In this document: one piece after another, positions 12,092-63,525 of the stretch
How the letters are laid out: each line of letters begins with the position of its first letter
Position numbering within the stretch: position 1 is the stretch's first letter
Source: a virus
Lineage: Duplodnaviria; Heunggongvirae; Uroviricota; Caudoviricetes
Length of the DNA: 64,000 nucleotides
Reading direction: 5' to 3' (one strand)
Virus record (IMG/VR): IMGVR_UViG_3300009709_000001
Coordinates: 96,001-160,000 of that record
Notes under the pieces: model-generated
Database searches by the model: none
Seen by the model: the letters and a program-made list of their open reading frames with translations, nothing else
What the model was told of the DNA's origin: nothing
Program-made: the position numbers and the translations under genes

Positions 12092-13081
12092 TTAGACTTC
12101 AGTGCCGTCCTGGCGAACGATCTTCAGCTTAGCCTTCTTGCCGTCGATGTTACGCTGCACTTGCTCGATTGCGTCGAGATAAGTCATGTTGGTGTATTCA
12201 ACTGCACCACCGTTCACACGAACCAGGTTGTACAACTCATCGGCCGGATCATCTTCTGGCTGAGTTGGCTTCACGCCAGTCGGGAAAGGCCATGCAGCAA
12301 GAGCAGCATCCTTCTTAGCAGGCTTCTTGCTGAAGTCGCCATTGATTACCTTGCTGAATGCTTCTGCAGGGTTGCCGTTCACTTGACCAACCACTTCGTA
12401 CTTGCAGCAACGACCCTTCGCACCATTATAGTCCTTAGGAACGCTAACCACATCAGCAGGGTTGATCTTCAGGATCATGACTGGATCACCACCAGAACCG
12501 AAATGCTGCAGATAGCTTTCGCTGCAGAAGTGCAAACCGCTGGAGCAATAGGAATCAGGATTGTCGTCAACCGAGTTACGATCCATTTCAACAACTTCAC
12601 CGATACCATTGAAAATAGTGTTCGAGTGAAGGTCGTTGTAGTTGTCCTTACGCACCTTCTTGAATGCAAGGAAGTGGCCGTCTTCAGTAATCGGCAGGCT
12701 GTTGCGCTCAAGGAAGTCATACATCTGATTGACAGAACGCATGGATGGGTTCAGCATCAAATTTTCCATGAAACGAATCATCGGATCGATCGGGAAACCG
12801 TCCTGATACATTTGAATCATTCGCTTTGCCAAGCTATTATGGAAAGGTTGGCCCTTCCAGAAAATTTCGTCGCCTTCGATACTCACATGACCAGCACCAA
12901 AGTTAACGATAGCCTTTTTCGGTTCGATCAGGTCGCGCAGGGCGTCCCAATCCTTTTCCTTCAGTGCATCGATAATTTTCGTGTACGAGATGTGTGTACT
13001 TTGGCTGACAGTGTGGCTTTTTCCATCAACCACGAGGATGATGTTTTTGCCTTGCAGCAGATAAGGAATTGCCTTAGTCAT
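12092..13081 (-). CDS. rIIB: rIIB protein
   Basis: FMENLM.NPS, ITEDGHFLAFKKV, CSSGLHFCS, INPADVVSVP.DY...KGRCCKYEV; follows rIIA. Confidence 0.93.
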   Translation of the reverse strand: MTKAIPYLLQGKNIILVVDGKSHTVSQSTHISYTKIIDALKEKDWDALRDLIEPKKAIVNFGAGHVSIEGDEIFWKGQPFHNSLAKRMIQMYQDGFPIDPMIRFMENLMLNPSMRSVNQMYDFLERNSLPITEDGHFLAFKKVRKDNYNDLHSNTIFNGIGEVVEMDRNSVDDNPDSYCSSGLHFCSESYLQHFGSGGDPVMILKINPADVVSVPKDYNGAKGRCCKYEVVGQVNGNPAEAFSKVINGDFSKKPAKKDAALAAWPFPTGVKPTQPEDDPADELYNLVRVNGGAVEYTNMTYLDAIEQVQRNIDGKKAKLKIVRQDGTEV

Positions 13082-28668: not shown

Positions 28669-29469
28669 TTACCAGCTGCAAGAATTGCGTTTTTGTTGAA
28701 CTACACTTCTTGTTTTTGATGGCCAAGTTTTGTCCGAATATCTAGCATTCGGTGGCATCGGGAATTGAATCTGGGTATGTTGTTGAACTTGACCTAATTC
28801 AACAATAAATTGATCAAGGCTTCCCTTAGCTGGTCGATGTTTAAATTCATACACCAAAACATCTCTTGTAATCACATCAATCAAAATCTTATAGAAACCC
28901 GATGGAATAATTACTCGATTTGGGCCAATTGTCGGATCATCATATCTGTAAATCAGACCTGCATAAACAAGGATAGGATGATTTCTGGCATTAGCTAATG
29001 CTCTGGTCTGATCTTCAAGTCTCTTCCAAATTCCACGATTAAAACCGGGAAGCTGTGGAGTCATGTTGCTCAGGATGAAGCTTTCAGTCTCAATAACTGT
29101 ATCCCAGGACATATCAGCATTATTGGCAATATGGCCAGTATCGTACCCCGAATCGTTATAGTCCCGAAGTGTTGATCTTGCATCGGGGCGCAAGCTCAAA
29201 TCAGGTGAAAAAGCGTTGGATCGTTTGACGCAGCCCGTAGTGTGCTCAGGCGTCAACATATAAGAGACCCAGACGGGAATTTTAGCTTTATTGTCGTATT
29301 CCAGTGCATAAGCCTTGCGGCAAATCTGCACGCTGTCATCTTTGCGCACTTGCGGAATACCATAAGGCATCTGCTGTTCACATTGCTGTATCGGCATTGG
29401 TGGATCCTGCGGTACAGCAAAGGCCGATATCGTTGTTACTAAGGCAAGAAGTGCGAAGATCTTTTTCAT
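28669..29469 (-). CDS. secreted DNA/RNA non-specific endonuclease (NucA/EndoG family)
   Basis: signal peptide; YDTGH catalytic motif, ESFILSNMTPQ...FNRGIW..LE. Confidence 0.92.
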   Translation of the reverse strand: MKKIFALLALVTTISAFAVPQDPPMPIQQCEQQMPYGIPQVRKDDSVQICRKAYALEYDNKAKIPVWVSYMLTPEHTTGCVKRSNAFSPDLSLRPDARSTLRDYNDSGYDTGHIANNADMSWDTVIETESFILSNMTPQLPGFNRGIWKRLEDQTRALANARNHPILVYAGLIYRYDDPTIGPNRVIIPSGFYKILIDVITRDVLVYEFKHRPAKGSLDQFIVELGQVQQHTQIQFPMPPNARYSDKTWPSKTRSVVQQKRNSCSW

Positions 29470-29517
29470 GTGGTCCTTAATGAAAAAGCCCCAATGATAA
29501 TATCACCGGGGCAAAAC

Positions 29518-29591
29518 TGGAGCGGGTAACGAGAATCGAACTCGTGCATAAACTTTGGCAAAGTTTTAGGCTACCATTACATCATACCCGC
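29518..29591 (-). tRNA. tRNA-Gly(GCC)
   Basis: AAACT-TT-GCC-AA-AGTTT; U73-CCA. Confidence 0.92.
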
Positions 29592-29601
29592 ATACATCTA
29601 T

Positions 29602-29862
29602 TTATCTTCTAACTAAAAAATTCCGAAAGTGTGTTTTCACACCAAAGCTTCTAGGACATGGGCTTGCATTGGCATGTCAAGTATACGATTTCTCTTCATG
29701 ACTTGGTTCGGGCTTTCAAAGCCAAAACAAACAATTACCCATTCAATCCGCAAGAATTTACCGTTCAGATCGTAGCATCCTGGACTTATCTCGCTTCGCA
29801 CTCTTTAAATAATGGCTACTTCTAGGCCTACATCCTTACAGAGTTTTTTAGTTAGAAGATAA
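29602..29862 (-). ncRNA. ncRNA mimicking the 23S rRNA L11-binding domain (H43/H44)
   Basis: GGATGTAGGCCTAGAAGTAGCCATTATTTAAAGAGTGCG (29835-29797) matches the conserved 23S H43 segment; enclosed by a ~22-bp terminal helix. Confidence 0.7.
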
Positions 29863-29884
29863 GGGGACTCCGGTCCCCTTATCT
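29857..29884 (-). terminator. hairpin after the DUF2828 gene
   Basis: AGATAAGGGGAC-loop-GTCCCCTTATCT; weak T-tract, so may be a processing stem rather than a terminator. Confidence 0.5.
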
Positions 29885-29896
29885 ATACACGACCTC

Positions 29897-31306
29897 TTAG
29901 AAGTCGTACTTCTCGACCATTACAGTCTTCAGCATAATGCTGATCGGTGTCATTTCTTCACCACCAAGAACCGACTTAACGATGCTTGGGCTGAATCCAG
30001 ACACAAGTGCTGCACCGACCTTGTTATAGGTCACCGGGCTGTTACCAGAACGGCCAGTAATGTTCCAGAACACGATCTGTGGCATCTTGTAGCCTGCGGC
30101 TGCATATTCTGCCTCGATCATTTCCATCGCACTAACCGACACACCTGCACCATAACCACGGCCGGAACCAGCGGTTACGCAAGTGTCGAATTCCATGTCC
30201 GACAAGATCATGATCTTTGTCGGCATTTCCTTCTGTGCAACCTTACCCTTCACTGCCGCACCCAAGATCAACTTGAATACAGCCTGGATGTCAGTATTCA
30301 TGCTCCAGCTCGAACGAGACATAGTATCGAAACGCTGCTTCAAAGTACCAGTTACCTTCAACAGTTCTGGCGCACCAGAGAATGTCACGAACTGATCCTT
30401 GAACACACCACCCATGCGTTCTGCGGTGTATAGACCTAGCGAAATCGCCACGTCCATTGCAGTTACCGATCCAGACACCGGAGTATCCATAGAACCGGAA
30501 ACGTCAACAACCGCAAGGATGTTTTCATCCGAACCTTCCAAGTAGTTAGGCAATGCCTTCCACTGTTCGTTCGACACAGTAACGTCACCGTTACGTAGAG
30601 AACGGATCACATCGTATGGGTACGCCACCGATGCGTTGATCTTTGCTTCGCCAGAAACCAGCTTAGCCTTATAGGTAGCATAACCCGATGGGTCGTGCTT
30701 ACCGAAAGCCTTCTGATAACGACCAGCAGCAACCGAAGGAACGTGCTGGTAGTTGATGTCATCCCATTCCTGGGCACACATCTTCTGTTCAACAGTGTTA
30801 GACAAGCTAACAACGAGTTGACGATACTGCTTAGGTGTCAACTTCAAGTAAGAACGAATCTTACCGGCTTCTGCACCCTGACGAGGCATCCACTTAGCGC
30901 ACAGACCGTCCTTGGCATTCAAAGCAGTCGCAATCATGCGCAATGCTTCGCGTTCCAATGGAGTACCGAATGCAACGAATACGTCGTCCCAACGACCAAG
31001 TGTCGGCACCTTCGCCAATACCTTCGAAGCGTTAACCGCGTCGGTACGGATCAAGTAACCAAACAGGTCACGGAAAGTCTTACGTTCGCCGGAACCACCA
31101 CGGGCGTCACGAGTCCATTGAAGGATACGGATCGCCACTTCAGAATCTTCTGCCAAAGCACCAGCAAAGACATTCTTGATGTCCTTACCGCGGCTTGCGC
31201 CAGCTAGGAAGAAGAGGTCCACGTTCTTATTCAACGAGGACACGTTGGTAACCGCGCCATTAGCGGTTGTTGCGGAGGCGTTTATAGCGGTGAAAAGGTC
31301 TGTCAT
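29897..31306 (-). CDS. DUF2828-family TROVE-like + vWA protein (Ro60-related)
   Basis: T.NG.....S....VDLFF, RD.RGG.GER..F, GRWDD, AKW.PR, E..MC...W..I.Y..VPS.A, MIDAS DVSGSM, FS..P, TD.Q.VF..IL, SDMEFD, P.IVFWN, VSGFS. Confidence 0.85.
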   Translation of the reverse strand: MTDLFTAINASATTANGAVTNVSSLNKNVDLFFLAGASRGKDIKNVFAGALAEDSEVAIRILQWTRDARGGSGERKTFRDLFGYLIRTDAVNASKVLAKVPTLGRWDDVFVAFGTPLEREALRMIATALNAKDGLCAKWMPRQGAEAGKIRSYLKLTPKQYRQLVVSLSNTVEQKMCAQEWDDINYQHVPSVAAGRYQKAFGKHDPSGYATYKAKLVSGEAKINASVAYPYDVIRSLRNGDVTVSNEQWKALPNYLEGSDENILAVVDVSGSMDTPVSGSVTAMDVAISLGLYTAERMGGVFKDQFVTFSGAPELLKVTGTLKQRFDTMSRSSWSMNTDIQAVFKLILGAAVKGKVAQKEMPTKIMILSDMEFDTCVTAGSGRGYGAGVSVSAMEMIEAEYAAAGYKMPQIVFWNITGRSGNSPVTYNKVGAALVSGFSPSIVKSVLGGEEMTPISIMLKTVMVEKYDF

Positions 31307-31319
31307 ATTGTATTCTCCT

Positions 31320-31355
31320 CAGAATTATGCTTATGTTAAATGCTGTTTTAACTCT
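31320..31355 (-). promoter_or_regulatory. handle element A (minimal), abutting the SD of the DUF2828 gene
   Basis: AGAGTTA-AAA-CAGCA...TAATTCT-G followed directly by AGGAG and ATG. Confidence 0.65.
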
Positions 31356-31387
31356 TTAAAATTTAATTTTACATAAATAGTTTTACT

Positions 31388-32212
31388 ATGTCAACCAACT
31401 TAACACAGAAACCACCTAAATGTAAGAATCCCGAGTGCCAAAATGAAACATATTGGCGTAAAGGGTCCAAATCAATGCAATGGTCTACTTATTGCATGAA
31501 ATCATGCTATCATTCTCATAAGAGCACTCTTATGTCTAAACCACCAAGGTTAAATGGTCCAAAATGTAAATTACCTTCTTGTGAAAATCTTGTAAATTGG
31601 TCAAGAAGTAAAGGGGTCGGGTGGAAAAGCTATTGCTCCGGTAATTGCTCATCAAAATACAAATCGGCTATTCTACTAGATGAAAAATTATCTCTTCCTA
31701 TAAAAATATGTAATAATCCATACTGTAATAATATCGTTTCGATAAGAAACAAATATTCACATGTATGGCTAGATCAATGCTCTCTTGAATGTAAAAGAAT
31801 AGTCGATCAAATTAAAATCAAATCTACAAACATACAGAGGTATGGCGTAGAAAATGTTATGCAATGCGATTCTATATTTGCAAGTAATATCAAAAGCAAT
31901 AAACGATTCAAAGATTATATTTTACCATCTGGTAAAATAGTTCGCATACAGGGAAATGAAAACCTTGCATTGGACCAACTTCTTCAGACTTATCAAGAAG
32001 CAGAAATCATTTGCGATAGATCTCTTGTTCCGAAATTTTGGTACGGTAAAAAGAAATATTATCCAGATATCTATATACCGAAAGATAATCTTATTATCGA
32101 GGTCAAATCTAAATGGACTTATAATGGTAAACCGGAATGGTTAGAATCAAACCTTCTTAAACAGCAGGCATGTTTAGATGCCGGATATAACTTTAAATTT
32201 ATGATTTACTGA
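31388..32212 (+). CDS. putative homing endonuclease (paralogue of 249-1163)
   Basis: three Cys-rich repeats; KDYILPSGK, YYPDIYIPKDNLIIEVKSKWT, ACLDAGYNFKFMI shared with 249-1163. Confidence 0.78.
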   Translation: MSTNLTQKPPKCKNPECQNETYWRKGSKSMQWSTYCMKSCYHSHKSTLMSKPPRLNGPKCKLPSCENLVNWSRSKGVGWKSYCSGNCSSKYKSAILLDEKLSLPIKICNNPYCNNIVSIRNKYSHVWLDQCSLECKRIVDQIKIKSTNIQRYGVENVMQCDSIFASNIKSNKRFKDYILPSGKIVRIQGNENLALDQLLQTYQEAEIICDRSLVPKFWYGKKKYYPDIYIPKDNLIIEVKSKWTYNGKPEWLESNLLKQQACLDAGYNFKFMIY

Positions 32213-32415
32213 ATATAATCTATATTTTTTGTAGATAATCGAGTAACATCCCCACCGTCTGGTTTTGCAGAATAGATCGATTTTCCAGATTTTCTTTCCT
32301 GAATTATCCAATAAAGAATAGTAAGTGCTTCTGCATTCACTGCTACTGCATTTACACCAAGGGCCGATGTCATCTCGCAGATTTTGGTATCATCGATTTC
32401 TATACGAAGTTCCAT
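32206..32415 (-). CDS. small hypothetical protein (possible ribbon-helix-helix)
   Basis: MELRIEIDD strand followed by two helices; AAGGA SD. Confidence 0.5.
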   Translation of the reverse strand: MELRIEIDDTKICEMTSALGVNAVAVNAEALTILYWIIQERKSGKSIYSAKPDGGDVTRLSTKNIDYIQ

Positions 32416-32428
32416 ATATTTTCCTTAT

Positions 32429-32544
32429 CAGAATCATTTTTTATTGCCGGTTGCTCTGCCAACTGAGCTACGTCACCGAAGCGACGGCAGGACTCGAACC
32501 TGCGACCCACTGGTTGTTTCAATTTTTATTGCGGAACTGATTCT
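32429..32544 (-). ncRNA. handle element B: YrlA-type Y-like RNA with a permuted tRNA domain
   Basis: handle AGAATCA/TGATTCT; T-arm GCAGG-TTCGAGT-CCTGC, then an acceptor-like stem capped by TTCG, then D-arm GCTC-AGTTGGCA-GAGC. Confidence 0.85.
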
Positions 32545-32608
32545 TTACACATTAGTCGGCCAGCCGCTCGTTAACGGGTCTAGTTATCGGCATAATGCGA
32601 AAATCAAT

Positions 32609-32712
32609 CAGATTAGGTTTTGGCGAGTTTTTGCTTTCCCCACCAGAAAGGTTCTTTGTTGGCCCGAAGGCTTTCCAAGTTGCATAATTTTAAGGTATGC
32701 TGAACCTAATCT
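32609..32712 (-). ncRNA. handle element C
   Basis: AGATTAG-GTT-CAGCA...CTAATCT-G; internal TTCG hairpin. Confidence 0.7.
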
Positions 32713-32743
32713 TTACAATCGTTCTATTTTACGTGTTTTCCAA

Positions 32744-33106
32744 TTAAATGTCAATGGACTCAACAGTGTGATTATACGTGTCAGCTCCAACAGCTGGATC
32801 TACTAAGATGTCGCAATCGATATTCATCGACACAGCATCAAAATCCTGGATATTCAGTGTTACCGTATATCCACCAGTGGAATAACATGCAAATCTCTCT
32901 AGAATCTGTCTACCAAGACGGATATCCCGAATTGCATCCTTTGCCATTTCCTCGGCATGACGCATCATGAATTGCTTAATATGAATTCTAACTTCTTCTG
33001 AATCGCTAACAGTCGGAATCCAACGAGGAACCCATTTGTTTTCTTTCCATATAAAATCGGCAGCGGTGTCGAGTTGGAAACCGCTGTAATTCACATTAAT
33101 TTTCAT
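32744..33106 (-). CDS. hypothetical protein
   Basis: likely start MKINVN; YSTGGYTV and ILVDPAVG motifs. Confidence 0.6.
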   Translation of the reverse strand: MKINVNYSGFQLDTAADFIWKENKWVPRWIPTVSDSEEVRIHIKQFMMRHAEEMAKDAIRDIRLGRQILERFACYSTGGYTVTLNIQDFDAVSMNIDCDILVDPAVGADTYNHTVESIDI

Positions 33107-33121
33107 TATGGTCGGTAAGAA

Positions 33122-33334
33122 CAGAGTGATGCAAGGGACACATCGGAATCTAGTTCCTCTGCGCAATAGAGCCTTGCCTCCAGTTCGAACTTTTTACATC
33201 GTCCTAAGATGTTTGGTTGTCTGCATATTGCCGCCCTTTCGGATTTTTATGGCAATAGCTACCCTATCCGAAGATAGGTCTTTATCCAACCTGCTCATTA
33301 CCTTTCGGTATAAGTTGTTTGCTGAACTCACTCT
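33122..33334 (-). ncRNA. handle element D
   Basis: AGAGTGA-GTT-CAGCA...TCACTCT-G; GAAA and TTCG tetraloop hairpins; TTGACG-18-TATAAT at 33354-33383 just upstream. Confidence 0.72.
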
Positions 33335-33417
33335 TTTGTAAATTTGTACACCAATTATAGTGTATGTTTAGTTATGCCGTCAAGTAAAAACCACATGGTT
33401 AATGGTTCAAAAAGACG

Positions 33418-34149
33418 TCATTTTCTTTGACTAGCCTTGTAGGCAAGCTCTTTGTCAATAAAATCCACCGCACGACTCATCAAGCGTTTATAATCCTTGG
33501 ATTTTTCCTTTTCGGGGAACAAGGACGAAACTTTCTTAGCTTTCATGAATCTATCCAAATCTGCATAGGCTTGCTTCTTGATCTGGTTAGGATCAGATAT
33601 TTCCTTTACAAGCTTTTGAATGGACAAAACCATTAGGCTCATTACTTCGGCAAATCTTGCATTAATTTCTGCAGGGCTCGCCAAGTATCGCTGATGACTG
33701 TCAGCATTGCGATATTCCTTATTTTTCGGCGTATCGTAGCGCTTACTCTTACCTGCACGGAAGTTTGACTTGATGTCATCTAATGCGTGCCTAAATTCGT
33801 GGGTCAGAATTCTAAGTAAGGATTGATCAGCCTTTTTCAAGACGCGATCGCTTACATGGACAGTTGTCGTGGATGGATCCCATACTCCATCAACTACAGT
33901 ACCGGTTTGGTTCTTAGTTGCGGGGTCGTCTAGAAGCTCGTCTTGAGGATTGATGACAATGCTAATGTCGCCGAGTGCTTCAAGCGGAGTATTCAGATAA
34001 TCCGAAACCTTTCCTAGGTCAACAGATTCATCTGGTGCAGTACCCGGTGGATATTTCTGCCTAATCATTTTACTGACGGCGCCGGCCAATGAAACAATGG
34101 CCCTATCCTCATTCGCAGTTTCTGACAAAAATATCTCTCTTAAAAACAT
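33418..34149 (-). CDS. zincin-like (HExxH) protein
   Basis: LTHEFRHALD plus Y..SP.EINAR; late motif at 34169-34176. Confidence 0.65.
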   Translation of the reverse strand: MFLREIFLSETANEDRAIVSLAGAVSKMIRQKYPPGTAPDESVDLGKVSDYLNTPLEALGDISIVINPQDELLDDPATKNQTGTVVDGVWDPSTTTVHVSDRVLKKADQSLLRILTHEFRHALDDIKSNFRAGKSKRYDTPKNKEYRNADSHQRYLASPAEINARFAEVMSLMVLSIQKLVKEISDPNQIKKQAYADLDRFMKAKKVSSLFPEKEKSKDYKRLMSRAVDFIDKELAYKASQRK

Positions 34150-34182
34150 CGTGCATCCTTAGATGCACTATTTATCAAGAAA

Positions 34183-35262
34183 TCAATCCTCTTGCTTCAG
34201 AAGAAATTTATTACTGATAACCTTGAAGCTGAAATCACCATCCATTCTCTTCCAAACTTCGCCTTCGCGAATAGGATGAATAATAGATGGGCCATCGGCG
34301 TGGGCCAATAGCGAATTGATATTGGTAATACCCAATTCCTCAAGTGTTGCATTCATGTGCAGAACCGGTACATGCTGTACCATATCTCTGTCCAGGCCAC
34401 GCGCATACATTTCTTCAAGAATAGCATGACGTTCTGTCGGAGGAAGATATTTGCCGGTAACGATATTAAAAATATCGAACACAAAGAGCTTAACCTTCTT
34501 TAGCTGTTCACGGTTTTGTGGGAAGCCCGGCCCCATAATTTCACCCTGAACTGCGAAGTTGCGATCGAAGCTCAGCATTACATCCTTCAGCTTGCTATCC
34601 ACGAATAGACGAACAAGCTTATTATCAATGTTAACTGGATCATCGATATCAAAGTCCCAGTTTCTTCCGCAAACACTTGCGATACTGTCCTTGGTATAAC
34701 CAGTAAAGGATGCGCCATCCATTTTCATGCTGACTTCATAACGAGCATCGGCATTATCAGTAAAGATCTTTCGAACAATGTTCTGACAACGCTGCTGGTA
34801 AGTCTTCGGAATGTCGCCTGGGAAATTACCACGAACTTGTCCAGCCATTTCGTCCGGAATAGGCAGTTCGTATTTGATCACACCGAGCATATCGGTCACA
34901 TCCATGCCATCCTGTGGCGGCATGTAATCATTCGGACCAGTGCAGTTACCGATTGTATCACGGAGACTCTGCATTATAGGCAAGGCAAGGCCTTGGCTTA
35001 ACTGACCACGAAGCTTAATGGTCTTGATGCGAATACCTTCTTTGTCACCAAGGCGCTTAAAGGCACGGGCACGCAGATGCTCAACTTCGGGCATCATTGG
35101 AATCAGACTATCGATTTCAAAGTAGACGCATTGATCGCCTTCCTTGAATTCGCTCTTCAAGACAACGCATTGCCAGCCGTCAATAATGGCCAGCATAATA
35201 GAATCGGCTCCCTCAATAGGAAGCAATTTATCAATTCTACGGATGGTTGCTAGTTGTCTCAT
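34183..35262 (-). CDS. RNA ligase, DRB0094/Rnl2 family with N-terminal OB domain
   Basis: MRQLATI..I....PIEGAD.I, YFEIDS, LRGQLSQGL, motif I KMDG, QGEIMG, FVFDI, REG.V.K, SFKVISNKFL. Confidence 0.92.
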   Translation of the reverse strand: MRQLATIRRIDKLLPIEGADSIMLAIIDGWQCVVLKSEFKEGDQCVYFEIDSLIPMMPEVEHLRARAFKRLGDKEGIRIKTIKLRGQLSQGLALPIMQSLRDTIGNCTGPNDYMPPQDGMDVTDMLGVIKYELPIPDEMAGQVRGNFPGDIPKTYQQRCQNIVRKIFTDNADARYEVSMKMDGASFTGYTKDSIASVCGRNWDFDIDDPVNIDNKLVRLFVDSKLKDVMLSFDRNFAVQGEIMGPGFPQNREQLKKVKLFVFDIFNIVTGKYLPPTERHAILEEMYARGLDRDMVQHVPVLHMNATLEELGITNINSLLAHADGPSIIHPIREGEVWKRMDGDFSFKVISNKFLLKQED

Positions 35263-35277
35263 GATATGAAATTAAAA

Positions 35278-35469
35278 CAGGATAGTTGGTAGCGCGGTTT
35301 TTTTATTTTCTGGTGGGTTACATGAAACTACCTACCACCCTATTACAGTATTCTTCTGTAAACTATCTGCTGGGTTCTTCGCAGAGCATATCTAGTTCTC
35401 TAGAATATCTATTCCGTGGAGCAAGCTCGTCAATAGAATTTGGCTGGTTTTTGATGCAGTATCTATCCT
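35278..35469 (-). ncRNA. handle element E (between tRNA-Leu and the RNA ligase gene)
   Basis: AGGATAG-ATA-CTGCA...CTATCCT-G. Confidence 0.65.
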
Positions 35470-35476
35470 AAAACCT

Positions 35477-35560
35477 TGGTACCCCAGACCGGACTCGAAC
35501 CGGTACGCCTCTCAGCGGCGGATTTTGAGTCCGCTTTGTCTACCATTCCAACACCAGGGC
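35477..35560 (-). tRNA. tRNA-Leu(CAA)
   Basis: GCGGA-CT-CAA-AA-TCCGC; long V-arm; CCA. Confidence 0.93.
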
Positions 35561-35566
35561 AAATTC

Positions 35567-35800
35567 TTATTTATTCTGGGTGTATTCCTCGTACCATTTT
35601 TTCCATACTGCTTCGGCGTGGAAATAACCTATCACTAACCATGCAAATACAACCAGTGCATAGATCGGTAGTAAATATGGCCATGTAACCGCAGTCAAAA
35701 AGGCACCCATAAGCATCGTCATGAAGAAAGTCACAAAGAATTGATCGGGCTTCATAAGCTCGTGCATCTTCTCTAGAATAATCCATCTCAGAAAATTCAT
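35567..35800 (-). CDS. small membrane protein
   Basis: two TM segments. Confidence 0.6.
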   Translation of the reverse strand: MNFLRWIILEKMHELMKPDQFFVTFFMTMLMGAFLTAVTWPYLLPIYALVVFAWLVIGYFHAEAVWKKWYEEYTQNK

Positions 35801-35810
35801 GATGTGTCTT

Positions 35811-36209
35811 TCAAAAAAGCGGCAAATGACCGGTAATTTCGTTTATCTTTGCTTCGTCGTTAGGACCAACCCCAACTGCCGTAAGTGTAGCAACTCCTCC
35901 AAACTCTGTCAAGCCTGCATCTTTGATTAATGAAGCAGGCAATCCAGCAGCGAGGGCTTTCTTATAAATGTCCACTAATTCTTCGTCAGTGGTAACATAA
36001 ACGGCTACCTTCTTGAAATTCCCAACTACCCATTGCTTAATGAAAGGATCAGTTAAGGGAATCTCAAATTTTGTTTCGTCGGCATTCATACTGCCAATAC
36101 CTAGCAACGCACCGGTTGCTGCATGTGCGCCTTGCGCCACATATTTCCCGGTACGCATGTTGCGATCCTTCGGGAATTTCTTCATCACTAAAACTTGCTT
36201 CGAACCCAT
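35811..36209 (-). CDS. pth2: peptidyl-tRNA hydrolase, Pth2 family
   Basis: KQVLV, M..GKY.AQ.AHA, KKVAV, I.DAGLTEF, T.T.VGVGP, ITGHL.L. Confidence 0.92.
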   Translation of the reverse strand: MGSKQVLVMKKFPKDRNMRTGKYVAQGAHAATGALLGIGSMNADETKFEIPLTDPFIKQWVVGNFKKVAVYVTTDEELVDIYKKALAAGLPASLIKDAGLTEFGGVATLTAVGVGPNDEAKINEITGHLPLF

Positions 36210-62431: not shown

Positions 62432-62520
62432 CAGAATTCTTGTATCAGCGTCGCAGCCGAAGCCTAACACCGACAGGGATCGAACCTGCTATATCCAAAG
62501 GATGTTGCTGGAAGAATTCT
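62432..62520 (-). ncRNA. handle element F (T-arm plus TTCG-capped stem)
   Basis: AGAATTC-TTC-CAGCA...GAATTCT-G; GCAGG-TTCGATC-CCTGT. Confidence 0.72.
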
Positions 62521-63457: not shown

Positions 63458-63525
63458 CAGAATGCGTTTCTTTATGGTCAAATTGGAAGTTTGATTTTCT
63501 TGATTATTTTTGCTGAATACATTCT
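63458..63525 (-). ncRNA. handle element G (anticodon-stem-loop payload)
   Basis: AGAATGT-ATT-CAGCA...GCATTCT-G; TCAAA-CT-TCC-AA-TTTGA. Confidence 0.7.

What the first reader, a model, noticed from the sequence alone, without database searches (positions are those of the whole stretch)
31306..31355. Minimal handle sits on the DUF2828 gene's own ribosome-binding site (possible autoregulation)
Seen: element A is little more than the handle (36 nt). Its final G is followed directly by AGGAG, 8 nt and the ATG of the DUF2828 gene. Inference: free protein binds its own leader and blocks initiation, titrating protein level to the pool of handle RNAs. Elements B, D and E also end 13-15 nt before start codons (E before the RNA ligase gene), so the handle may double as a translational operator for a regulon.
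Basis: partly seen in the sequence, partly recalled or inferred. Interest (0 to 1): 0.75.

Follow-up and report, generated by a model that had tools for sequence, protein, structure and literature searches.

The report
Cargo-free RNA handle abutting Ro60-like gene's RBS
The messenger RNA for this phage's Ro60-shaped RNA-binding protein appears to begin with a stripped-down copy of the short "handle" that closes the phage's Y-RNA-like small RNAs, set directly against the ribosome-binding site and kept there in many related phages, so the protein probably binds its own message and limits its own synthesis, though no binding has been shown.

Summary
On the minus strand, 31355..31320 is a 36-nt hairpin with every signature of the phage's handle RNAs: AGR start, CAGCA at nt 11-15, a 7-bp closing stem and a terminal G. 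It carries no cargo. AGGAG follows the G directly, then 8 nt, then the ATG of a DUF2828/DUF7788 gene whose predicted fold matches Ro60. An 11/12 sigma70-like promoter ends 10 nt upstream, so the handle is essentially the whole 5' leader.

All 19 non-redundant close relatives keep a handle 3' strand against the SD, as a mini-handle or as a full YrlA-like RNA. So do cultured Stenotrophomonas phage DLP_6 and a second distant clade. Other clades do not (KVP40, Felixounavirus, S13, Listeria, mycobacteriophage).

Every genuine cargo-free handle found lies in this leader position. Autogenous translational repression by target mimicry is the best reading (about 0.45), but it is untested.

The "regulon" extension is mostly unsupported. 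The RNA-ligase junction is absent in 13 relatives, and other handles abut start codons no more often than tRNAs do.

This scan had already noted the same layout in other phage genomes.

The parts
31366..31394 (-). Sigma70-like promoter, TTGACA-N17-TAAAAT. The -10 hexamer ends 10 nt before the handle. The -35 hexamer overlaps the start codon of the divergent plus-strand gene.
   Evidence: 11 of 12 consensus matches. Equivalent promoters lie 10-20 nt upstream of the mini-handle in L004, L013, L019 and L022 (read by eye).
31320..31355 (-). Element A, a cargo-free handle. 5' arm 31355-31349, CAGCA 31345-31341, 3' arm 31327-31321, terminal G 31320.
31315..31319 (-). Shine-Dalgarno AGGAG, directly after the handle's terminal G and 8 nt before the ATG
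   Evidence: relatives
29897..31306 (-). DUF2828/DUF7788 gene (469 aa, phrog_850 'RNA-binding protein') with a Ro60-like fold: helical-repeat ring plus a vWA domain with DxSxS
32429..32544 (-). It ends 13 nt before a 69-aa ORF.
   Evidence: (RF02553, 41.9 bits, below the gathering score)
32609..32712 (-). Handle RNA of 104 nt (10-bp closing stem), preceded by promoter 32754..32726
33122..33334 (-). Handle RNA of 213 nt, preceded by promoter 33383..33354. It ends 15 nt before orf120 (33106..32744).
35278..35469 (-). Handle RNA of 192 nt that ends 15 nt before the RNA ligase ATG (35262). There is no SD, and the junction is not conserved in relatives.
62432..62520 (-). Further handle RNA (89 nt) in the tRNA region
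   Evidence: 20.3 bits
63458..63525 (-). Further handle RNA (68 nt) in the tRNA region
   Evidence: 30.8 bits, E 3e-5
29488..29512 (-). Intrinsic-terminator-like hairpin after tRNA-Gly; the likely end of the transcription unit that starts at the promoter at 31394

Best explanation
Element A is a cis-acting, cargo-free copy of the handle that closes this phage's Y-RNA-like small RNAs. The handle consists of a 7-bp terminal stem, a CAGCA motif and a terminal G.

Transcription from the sigma70-like promoter at 31394..31366 would start a few nucleotides before the handle. The DUF2828 mRNA would then consist of handle, SD and AUG with no spacer between them.

The proposed mechanism is as follows. 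The Ro60-fold DUF2828 protein recognises the handle on its cargo RNAs. When protein exceeds free handle RNAs, it also binds the weaker, protein-dependent hairpin in its own leader, which spans -14 to -49 relative to the AUG. That binding sterically excludes the 30S subunit from the adjacent SD. This is autogenous translational repression by target mimicry.

Shown here: the anatomy, the family membership of A, its conservation, the exclusivity of cargo-free copies to this position, and the Ro60-like fold.

Inferred: that the protein binds handles, that the handle stays on the mRNA, and that binding represses translation.
For: (1) Anatomy. The order is promoter, handle, SD, ATG, with 0 nt between the handle's G and AGGAG.

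(2) A carries all the invariant handle signatures seen in 118 non-redundant elements.

(3) The junction is kept while the element itself changes. Close relatives have either a YrlA-like RNA then SD, or a YrlA-like RNA then a mini-handle then SD, or a promoter or upstream stop codon then a mini-handle then SD. This holds in 19 of 19. DLP_6 has a 41-nt mini-handle whose terminal G is part of the SD. In clade II, 10 of 11 members keep the junction.

(4) Stem covariation. In the leader alignment, 100% of cells are paired, two pairs show double changes, and 2 of 500 shuffles reach the score. Family-wide, 114 of 173 5' motifs have a partner for their own arm, against 12-25 with permuted arms.

(5) All 11 genuine handles of 52 nt or less lie in the leader position. 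The other 7 hits are, on inspection, spurious partner calls. The smallest non-leader handle in the window's clade is 68 nt. L009's mini-handle has the arms and CCGCA of the YrlA-like type, which suggests an independent loss of cargo.

(6) In the window's clade, leader handles lack the U-rich spacer that follows the other handles: mean 0.45 versus 3.59 U in the first 6 nt, p = 2e-6. This is consistent with A not being cut away like the released RNAs.

(7) Mini-handle hairpins are weak, -2 to -4.5 kcal/mol. They are therefore unlikely to act without a partner.

(8) The protein's predicted structure matches Ro60 structures over its full length: 9kop and 9l5y (phage phiLo Ro60), 1yvp and 2nvo, with probability 1.0 and TM 0.5-0.6.

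(9) Handles co-occur with the gene. Model R1 hits 5 of 5 DUF2828 phages and 0 of 3 tRNA-rich phages that lack the gene, namely T4, T5 and SPO1.
Against: There is no binding or expression data of any kind.

The leader handle is absent from large DUF2828 clades: clade III (25 of 26), KVP40, Felixounavirus, S13, Listeria LP-064 and mycobacteriophage Rumpelstiltskin. The protein therefore does not need it.

Everything in these RNA islands is packed with spacers of about 8-12 nt, as read from the coordinates and flanks. In clade II the usual U-rich spacer is kept before the SD. Dense packing of co-transcribed units with later processing could therefore produce much of the adjacency.

A deviates from the family consensus at nt 9 and 16. 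It scores only E 0.17 with the independent model. Its stem is not the minimum-free-energy fold.

The promoter and transcription start site are predicted, not mapped.
Confidence: 0.45

Rival explanations
1. A is simply the last, cargo-less member of a densely packed, co-transcribed array of Y-like RNAs. It would be released by processing and act in trans, or do nothing. It touches the SD only because these phage RNA islands leave no spare bases. It would not regulate the gene.
For: Handles, tRNAs and genes in the loci are separated by only about 8-12 nt, as read. By a crude ORF call, 18% of tRNAs also lie within 25 nt of a start codon. Clade II keeps the standard U-rich spacer between handle and SD. 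Y RNAs encoded upstream of the Ro60 gene and processed from one precursor are known in M. smegmatis (PMC4201824), and Y-RNA-like genes lie upstream of the Ro60 gene in Thermus phage phiLo (PMC12135203). Small handles of 54-70 nt exist as free-standing units among tRNAs.
Against: Cargo-free copies (52 nt or less) are found only in front of DUF2828. In the window, L004, L013, L019 and L022 the mini-handle has its own promoter and is the entire leader. In L001 and DLP_6 it exactly fills an intercistronic gap. The junction survives replacement of the element type. The window's clade lacks the U-rich spacer here.
Confidence: 0.25
2. The leader handle is cis-regulatory but does not act by blocking initiation. 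Bound DUF2828 protein would cap the mRNA 5' end and stabilise it. Alternatively, as Ro60-Y RNA-PNPase complexes do, it would deliver the message to an exonuclease, giving autoregulation through decay.
For: The handle begins about 2-6 nt from the predicted 5' end. The hairpin alone is too weak to protect the message, so a protein partner would be needed. Ro60/Y RNA complexes tether PNPase, including phage phiLo Ro60 (PMC12135203; PMC4201824).
Against: Positions in intercistronic gaps (L001, DLP_6) and after a YrlA-like RNA (L007 group) are not 5'-terminal, yet the zero-to-few-nt contact with the SD is kept. That fits RBS occlusion better than end protection.
Confidence: 0.2
3. The motif acts at the transcription or DNA level: a nut-like antitermination site on the nascent RNA, or an inverted-repeat operator for a DNA-binding protein.
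For: The three strongest promoter-like sites in 29400-35900 each sit 10-19 nt upstream of a handle. The arms of A form an inverted repeat in DNA as well.
Against: In other family members the two arms are 100-300 nt apart and enclose structured cargo, which fits only RNA-level pairing. A G.U pair in A and a strict strand bias of 160 versus 8 also point to RNA. Handles occur in tandem arrays and between tRNAs, unlike nut sites or operators.
Confidence: 0.05

Closest known systems
Ro60/Rsr with Y RNAs encoded next to the gene (M. smegmatis YrlA/YrlB upstream of rsr; D. radiodurans Yrn1/2; Thermus phage phiLo Ro60 with Yrl1/Yrl2; Rfam RF02553)
   Same: A Ro60-fold protein is encoded beside several small RNAs whose 5' and 3' ends pair into a stem carrying a short conserved motif on the 5' strand. 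One of these RNAs has a permuted tRNA-like body. The RNAs lie upstream of the protein gene and on the same strand (PMC4201824; PMC12135203).
   Different: By sequence the protein is DUF2828/DUF7788, not TROVE. The conserved motif is CAGCA(A) with an AGR...YCUG stem, not GNCGAA/CGAA. A has no Rfam match. I found no paper describing a cargo-free copy fused to the gene's own SD, or any autoregulation of Ro60.
Autogenous translational control by target mimicry (E. coli thrS operator and ThrRS; ribosomal proteins S8, L1, S15, L20; T4 gp32, gp43, RegA; MS2 coat protein and replicase operator). From own knowledge.
   Same: A reduced look-alike of the protein's RNA ligand sits at or next to the RBS of the protein's own mRNA. 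The copy is weaker than the primary ligands, which would let free ligand titrate the protein.
   Different: None of the functional steps (binding, competition with the 30S subunit, repression) has been tested here. The arrangement is lineage-specific within the protein family.
5'-terminal stabiliser hairpins (ompA leader type). From own knowledge.
   Same: A hairpin lies within a few nucleotides of the predicted mRNA 5' end.
   Different: The stem is very weak (about -2 kcal/mol). In several relatives the same element occurs in non-terminal positions.

Membership tests
Handle RNA module of DUF2828 phages (undescribed family; defined here by descriptor and by model R1) | 5' strand AGR-N7-CNGCA, with the C at nt 11 | tested here: met
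   AGAGUUAAAACAGCA at 31355-31341. It deviates from the consensus U at nt 9 and A at nt 16.
Handle RNA module of DUF2828 phages (undescribed family; defined here by descriptor and by model R1) | 7-bp stem pairing the two ends, followed by an unpaired G, on the DUF2828 strand | tested here: met
   AGAGUUA/UAAUUCU plus G. Covariation among leader copies. Pairing probability is only 0.49 in the window's copy, against 0.81-0.98 in relatives.
Handle RNA module of DUF2828 phages (undescribed family; defined here by descriptor and by model R1) | Significant score with a covariance model built without the window or its clade | tested here: inconclusive
   R1 aligns full length at 31317-31358 with 15.6 bits, E 0.17 for the 64-kb window, rank 6. 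One probable false hit ranks higher.
YrlA / Y RNA (Rfam RF02553, RF00019) | Match to the covariance model; GNCGAA-type Ro-binding motif; tRNA-like or other loop domain | tested here: not met
   There is no Rfam match on A even at E <= 10; only 32450-32510 matches YrlA. A has no GNCGAA or CGAA motif (motif from PMC4201824).
Ro60/TROVE proteins (for the gene downstream of A) | Helical-repeat ring plus vWA domain fold | tested here: met
   The AlphaFold2 model (pLDDT 80.6, pTM 0.77) matches 9kop, 9l5y, 9nen, 2i91, 1yvr and 2nvo over about 500 columns at probability 1.0. D268, S270 and S272 (DxSxS) are invariant.
Ro60/TROVE proteins (for the gene downstream of A) | Sequence membership in Pfam TROVE | tested here: not met
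   Pfam reports only DUF7788 and DUF2828 at E <= 0.01. phmmer against PDB sequences finds no Ro60.
Autogenous translational operators | Binding site overlapping or abutting the RBS of the protein's own mRNA | tested here: met
   There are 0 nt between the handle's G and AGGAG. The handle spans -14 to -49. The junction is kept in 19 of 19 close relatives, in DLP_6 and in clade II.
Autogenous translational operators | The protein binds the site and represses initiation; free ligand RNA relieves the repression | not testable with these tools
   This needs EMSA, toeprinting and reporter assays.
Intrinsic terminator | G+C-rich hairpin followed by a U tract | tested here: not met
   The terminator scan does not call it. 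The stem is A/U-rich and the 3' flank is purine-rich.

The most novel reading that the evidence does not exclude
DUF2828 proteins and CAGCA-handle RNAs would form a very large, undescribed phage branch of the Ro60-Y RNA world. It spans Proteobacteria, Firmicutes and Actinobacteria phages, and its cargoes include tRNA bodies, anticodon-arm-like hairpins and rRNA mimics. In part of this branch the protein's own mRNA would be a client: a cargo-free handle on the RBS would give the first known feedback loop for a Ro60-family protein, setting the protein level to the pool of cargo RNAs during infection.
Probability: 0.4. Interest if true: 0.75.

Novelty: new variant of a known kind. Interest (0 to 1): 0.6.

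Why it matters
No regulatory loop is known for any Ro60-family protein. How cells or phages match Ro60 levels to their Y RNAs is an open question.

This leader offers a compact, directly testable system of about 40 nt of RNA and one protein. A cultured phage, Stenotrophomonas phage DLP_6, carries the same layout.

The placement is also the best internal evidence that the DUF2828 protein is the partner of the handle RNAs. That link ties a widespread phage 'RNA-binding protein' of unknown role (711 phage records) to a defined RNA motif.

Tried and rejected
- Megablast of the locus against phage genomes gave no match.
- phmmer of the protein against PDB sequences found only designed helical-repeat proteins. 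The Ro60 link needed a fold search.
- Rfam with permissive thresholds found nothing on A.
- An SD-sequestering alternative hairpin exists in the window, where the handle's 3' arm AUUCU pairs with AGAAU after the SD. It is not conserved in relatives such as L004 and L018, and SD accessibility varies from 0.45 to 0.88. I rejected it as a riboswitch-like mechanism.
- The idea of the handle as a general translational operator (a regulon) was tested and mostly rejected.
- KVP40-type leaders contain an ACAGCAA next to the SD but no convincing stem. I did not count them.
- The careful maximum-likelihood tree did not finish. Only the quick tree was used, and its deep branches are open. I therefore make no claim about how many times the leader handle arose.
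- In that tree five rows (L002, L017, L021, L057, L072) were first mislabelled as lacking a handle, because duplicate upstream regions had been collapsed. I corrected them by hand.

Full report
**What is in the window**

The window belongs to a 385-kb phage genome. It is an RNA island with 24 tRNA genes and a permuted tmRNA, nearly all on the minus strand.

The ORF 29897..31306 (minus strand, 469 aa) matches Pfam DUF7788 and DUF2828 and PHROG 850 'RNA-binding protein'. Read on the minus strand, the 81-nt gap upstream of its ATG contains, in order:
- a sigma70-like promoter, TTGACA-N17-TAAAAT, at 31394..31366 (11 of 12 matches);
- 10 nt of spacer;
- the 36-nt element A at 31355..31320;
- AGGAG at 31319..31315;
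- 8 nt, then the ATG at 31306.

Element A has a 5' arm AGAGUUA and a 3' arm UAAUUCU, giving 7 bp including one G.U. CAGCA occupies nt 11-15, and one unpaired G follows the stem. So are its gaps of 13, 15 and 15 nt for the three other elements.

**Element A is a real member of a repeated RNA family**

I used a descriptor of AGR-N7-CNGCA, a perfect 7-bp closing stem, a following G, and a total length of 28-330 nt.
- In the window it finds seven elements, all on the minus strand.
- In the whole genome it finds about ten credible elements, all on the minus strand within genome positions 127-173 kb.
- In 80 loci that encode DUF2828 homologues it finds 160 elements on the gene strand, 8 on the other strand and 8 in shuffled sequence.
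- Of 173 non-redundant 5' motifs, 114 have a perfectly complementary partner for their own arm, against 12-25 when arms are permuted among elements. There are 89 distinct arm sequences.

The two arms can lie 100-300 nt apart and enclose structured cargo, which fits RNA-level pairing. One cargo, at 32544..32429, is a permuted tRNA body that matches the core of Rfam YrlA (41.9 bits, E 7e-7, below the gathering score).

A covariance model (R1) built only from small handles of distant phages recovers four of the window's elements at E values from 3e-5 to 0.011. It places A at exactly 31317..31358, but with a marginal score (15.6 bits, E 0.17, rank 6). The low score is expected for a copy with no inner hairpin, and I record it as a caveat.

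Nothing in Rfam 15 matches A.

**The downstream gene encodes a Ro60-shaped protein, and handles travel with it**

An AlphaFold2 model (pLDDT 80.6, pTM 0.77) matches Ro60 structures over its full length. The best hits are the Thermus phage phiLo Ro60 (9kop, 9l5y), followed by human and Xenopus Ro60 and Deinococcus Rsr. All have probability 1.0 and TM 0.5-0.6. The vWA DxSxS motif is invariant in 29 homologues.

By sequence the protein is not a TROVE member.

Homologues occur in 711 phage records.

Model R1 finds handles in 5 of 5 cultured DUF2828 phages that I searched whole: a Felixounavirus, DLP_6, S13, Aeh1 and KVP40. All hits lie on the gene's strand. It finds none in T4, T5 or SPO1, which also lack the gene.

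Descriptor hits with the same CAGCAA motif also flank the gene in a Listeria phage, a Klebsiella phage and a mycobacteriophage. In the mycobacteriophage the stem ends are UGG...CCAG.

That the protein binds the handle remains an inference from this co-occurrence and from the Ro60-Y RNA precedent (PMC4201824, PMC12135203).

In the 19 non-redundant loci whose protein is 74-80% identical to the window's, a handle 3' strand always abuts the SD. The gap from the terminal G to the ATG is 10-18 nt (L008 was added by eye). The element that supplies this strand differs between loci:
- a full YrlA-like RNA (L003, L005, L008, L011, L015);
- a YrlA-like RNA followed by a mini-handle (the L007 group);
- a mini-handle behind its own promoter (window, L004, L013, L019, L022);
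- a mini-handle that fills the space after the upstream stop codon (L001).

The closest cultured relative, Stenotrophomonas phage DLP_6 (55% identity), has a 41-nt mini-handle in a 61-nt intercistronic gap. Its terminal G is the first base of the SD.

A second clade at about 48% identity keeps a handle 12-25 nt before the ATG in 10 of 11 members.

Other lineages have no leader handle: clade III (25 of 26), KVP40, Felixounavirus, S13, Listeria LP-064 and mycobacteriophage Rumpelstiltskin. Their handles lie downstream of the gene or farther upstream.

The leader copies show 100% pairing and two pairs with compensatory changes.

**Is adjacency just dense packing?**

Partly, it could be. Units in these islands are typically 8-12 nt apart, as read. 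By a crude ORF call, 76 of 429 tRNAs lie within 25 nt of a start codon.

Four observations go beyond packing.
- All 11 genuine handles of 52 nt or less are leader copies. The 7 other short hits are, on inspection, mis-paired parts of longer elements or lie in coding sequence.
- L009's mini-handle carries the arms and CCGCA of the YrlA-like type. Cargo therefore seems to have been lost more than once at this position while the handle-SD junction was kept.
- In the window's clade the leader copies lack the U-rich spacer that follows the other handles (0.45 versus 3.59 U in six nt, p = 2e-6). An SD there necessarily makes the flank purine-rich. The point is that no spacer was kept in front of it.
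- The mini-handle hairpins are weak, -2 to -4.5 kcal/mol. In the window's copy the stem is nearly iso-energetic with an alternative fold. This argues for dependence on a partner rather than an autonomous structural role.

**The regulon extension**

Homologues of the RNA ligase in 13 relatives have ordinary leaders and no handle.

Handles in front of genes other than DUF2828 abut a start codon in 12 of 96 cases, no more often than tRNAs do.

The junctions at 33122 and 35278 have no SD.

Only the pairing of the 213-nt element with orf120 recurs, with a gap of 15-26 nt in L001/L002, L008 and L011. I regard a handle-controlled regulon as unsupported.

**Mechanism**

The best-supported reading is autogenous translational repression by target mimicry. 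Excess protein would bind the cargo-free handle at -14 to -49 and exclude the 30S subunit from the abutting SD. Cargo RNAs would compete for the protein and relieve the block.

Rivals:
- Packing and processing with no regulatory role.
- Protein-dependent stabilisation or decay of the message.
- A nut-like or DNA-level role. This one is disfavoured by the strand bias, the G.U pair, the long-range arms and the tandem arrays.

**Comparison with known systems and novelty**

Ro60 genes with Y RNAs immediately upstream are known, including in phages (PMC4201824; PMC12135203). A preprint notes Ro60-like structure for Bas63 gp130 beside its tRNA genes (10.1101/2024.10.10.617714).

In my searches I found no description of the CAGCA handle, of DUF2828 as its partner, or of any Ro60-family autoregulation.

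Notes from this scan report the same layout of a cargo-free handle in the DUF2828 leader in several other phage genomes, with the same tentative reading. Those are unchecked AI notes, not independent evidence, but they show the arrangement is not peculiar to this window.

I class the finding as a new variant of known kinds: Ro60-Y RNA modules combined with autogenous control by target mimicry.

Noticed in passing
L065:2334-2399, L071:1599-1660, L056:2439-2505, L065:4052-4122, L039:2439-2509 (alignment A3): Many small (52-70 nt) handle RNAs of distant DUF2828 phages carry a single 5-bp hairpin with a 7-nt loop of anticodon-loop form (for example CU-UGU-AA and CU-UUU-AA). They look like anticodon-arm mimics mounted on the handle. 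This would complement the YrlA-like element, which is a tRNA body without an anticodon arm.
   Followed up: no
window 31388-32212 (+): This is the only plus-strand gene in the neighbourhood. It matches DUF7487, has zinc-finger-like repeats and gives weak PHROG hits to endonuclease and homing endonuclease families. Its start codon overlaps the -35 hexamer of the DUF2828 promoter. It separates the YrlA-like RNA and orf69 from element A, whereas in L003, L005 and L011 the YrlA-like RNA abuts DUF2828 directly. It may be a mobile insertion.
   Followed up: partly
window 33122-33334 (-) with orf120 33106-32744 (-): The 213-nt handle RNA and the 120-aa ORF that starts 15 nt after it recur as a pair in L001/L002, L008 and L011, with a gap of 15-26 nt and no clear SD. 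The ORF has no Pfam or PHROG match.
   Followed up: partly
3' flanks of handles in the window and loci, for example window 32608-32600, 33121-33113, 63457-63450: The invariant unpaired G after the stem is usually followed by U/A then a U-rich run (UUUUCAAU, AUUUAAU, UUGUUUUU). From my own knowledge this resembles an RNase E-type single-strand cleavage context, and it may mark the processing site that releases the RNAs.
   Followed up: no
window 62432-62520 (-) and 63458-63525 (-): Two further handle RNAs (89 and 68 nt) lie 31 kb from the DUF2828 gene, among tRNA-Leu, tRNA-Cys and tRNA-Tyr. Three more candidates lie just beyond the window, at genome positions 167472-172653.
   Followed up: partly
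L009:5944-5988: The 45-nt leader handle has the arms (AGAAUCA/UGAUUCU) and the CCGCA variant of the YrlA-like element but no tRNA body. It looks like a cargo-deleted derivative of that element.
   Followed up: no
L088:2972-3229 (Mycobacterium phage Rumpelstiltskin), L089:1123-1385 (Listeria phage LP-064): The CAGCAA motif is kept in actinobacterial and Firmicutes phages. In the mycobacteriophage the stem ends are UGG...CCAG and the elements lie downstream of the gene. In the Listeria phage three tandem handles end 73 nt upstream of the gene, with a separate hairpin in between, and an RtcB-like ligase is encoded nearby.
   Followed up: partly
window 12739-12808 (+): Model R1 gives a 17.4-bit hit (E 0.06) on the plus strand, far from the RNA island. 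It is probably a false positive.
   Followed up: no
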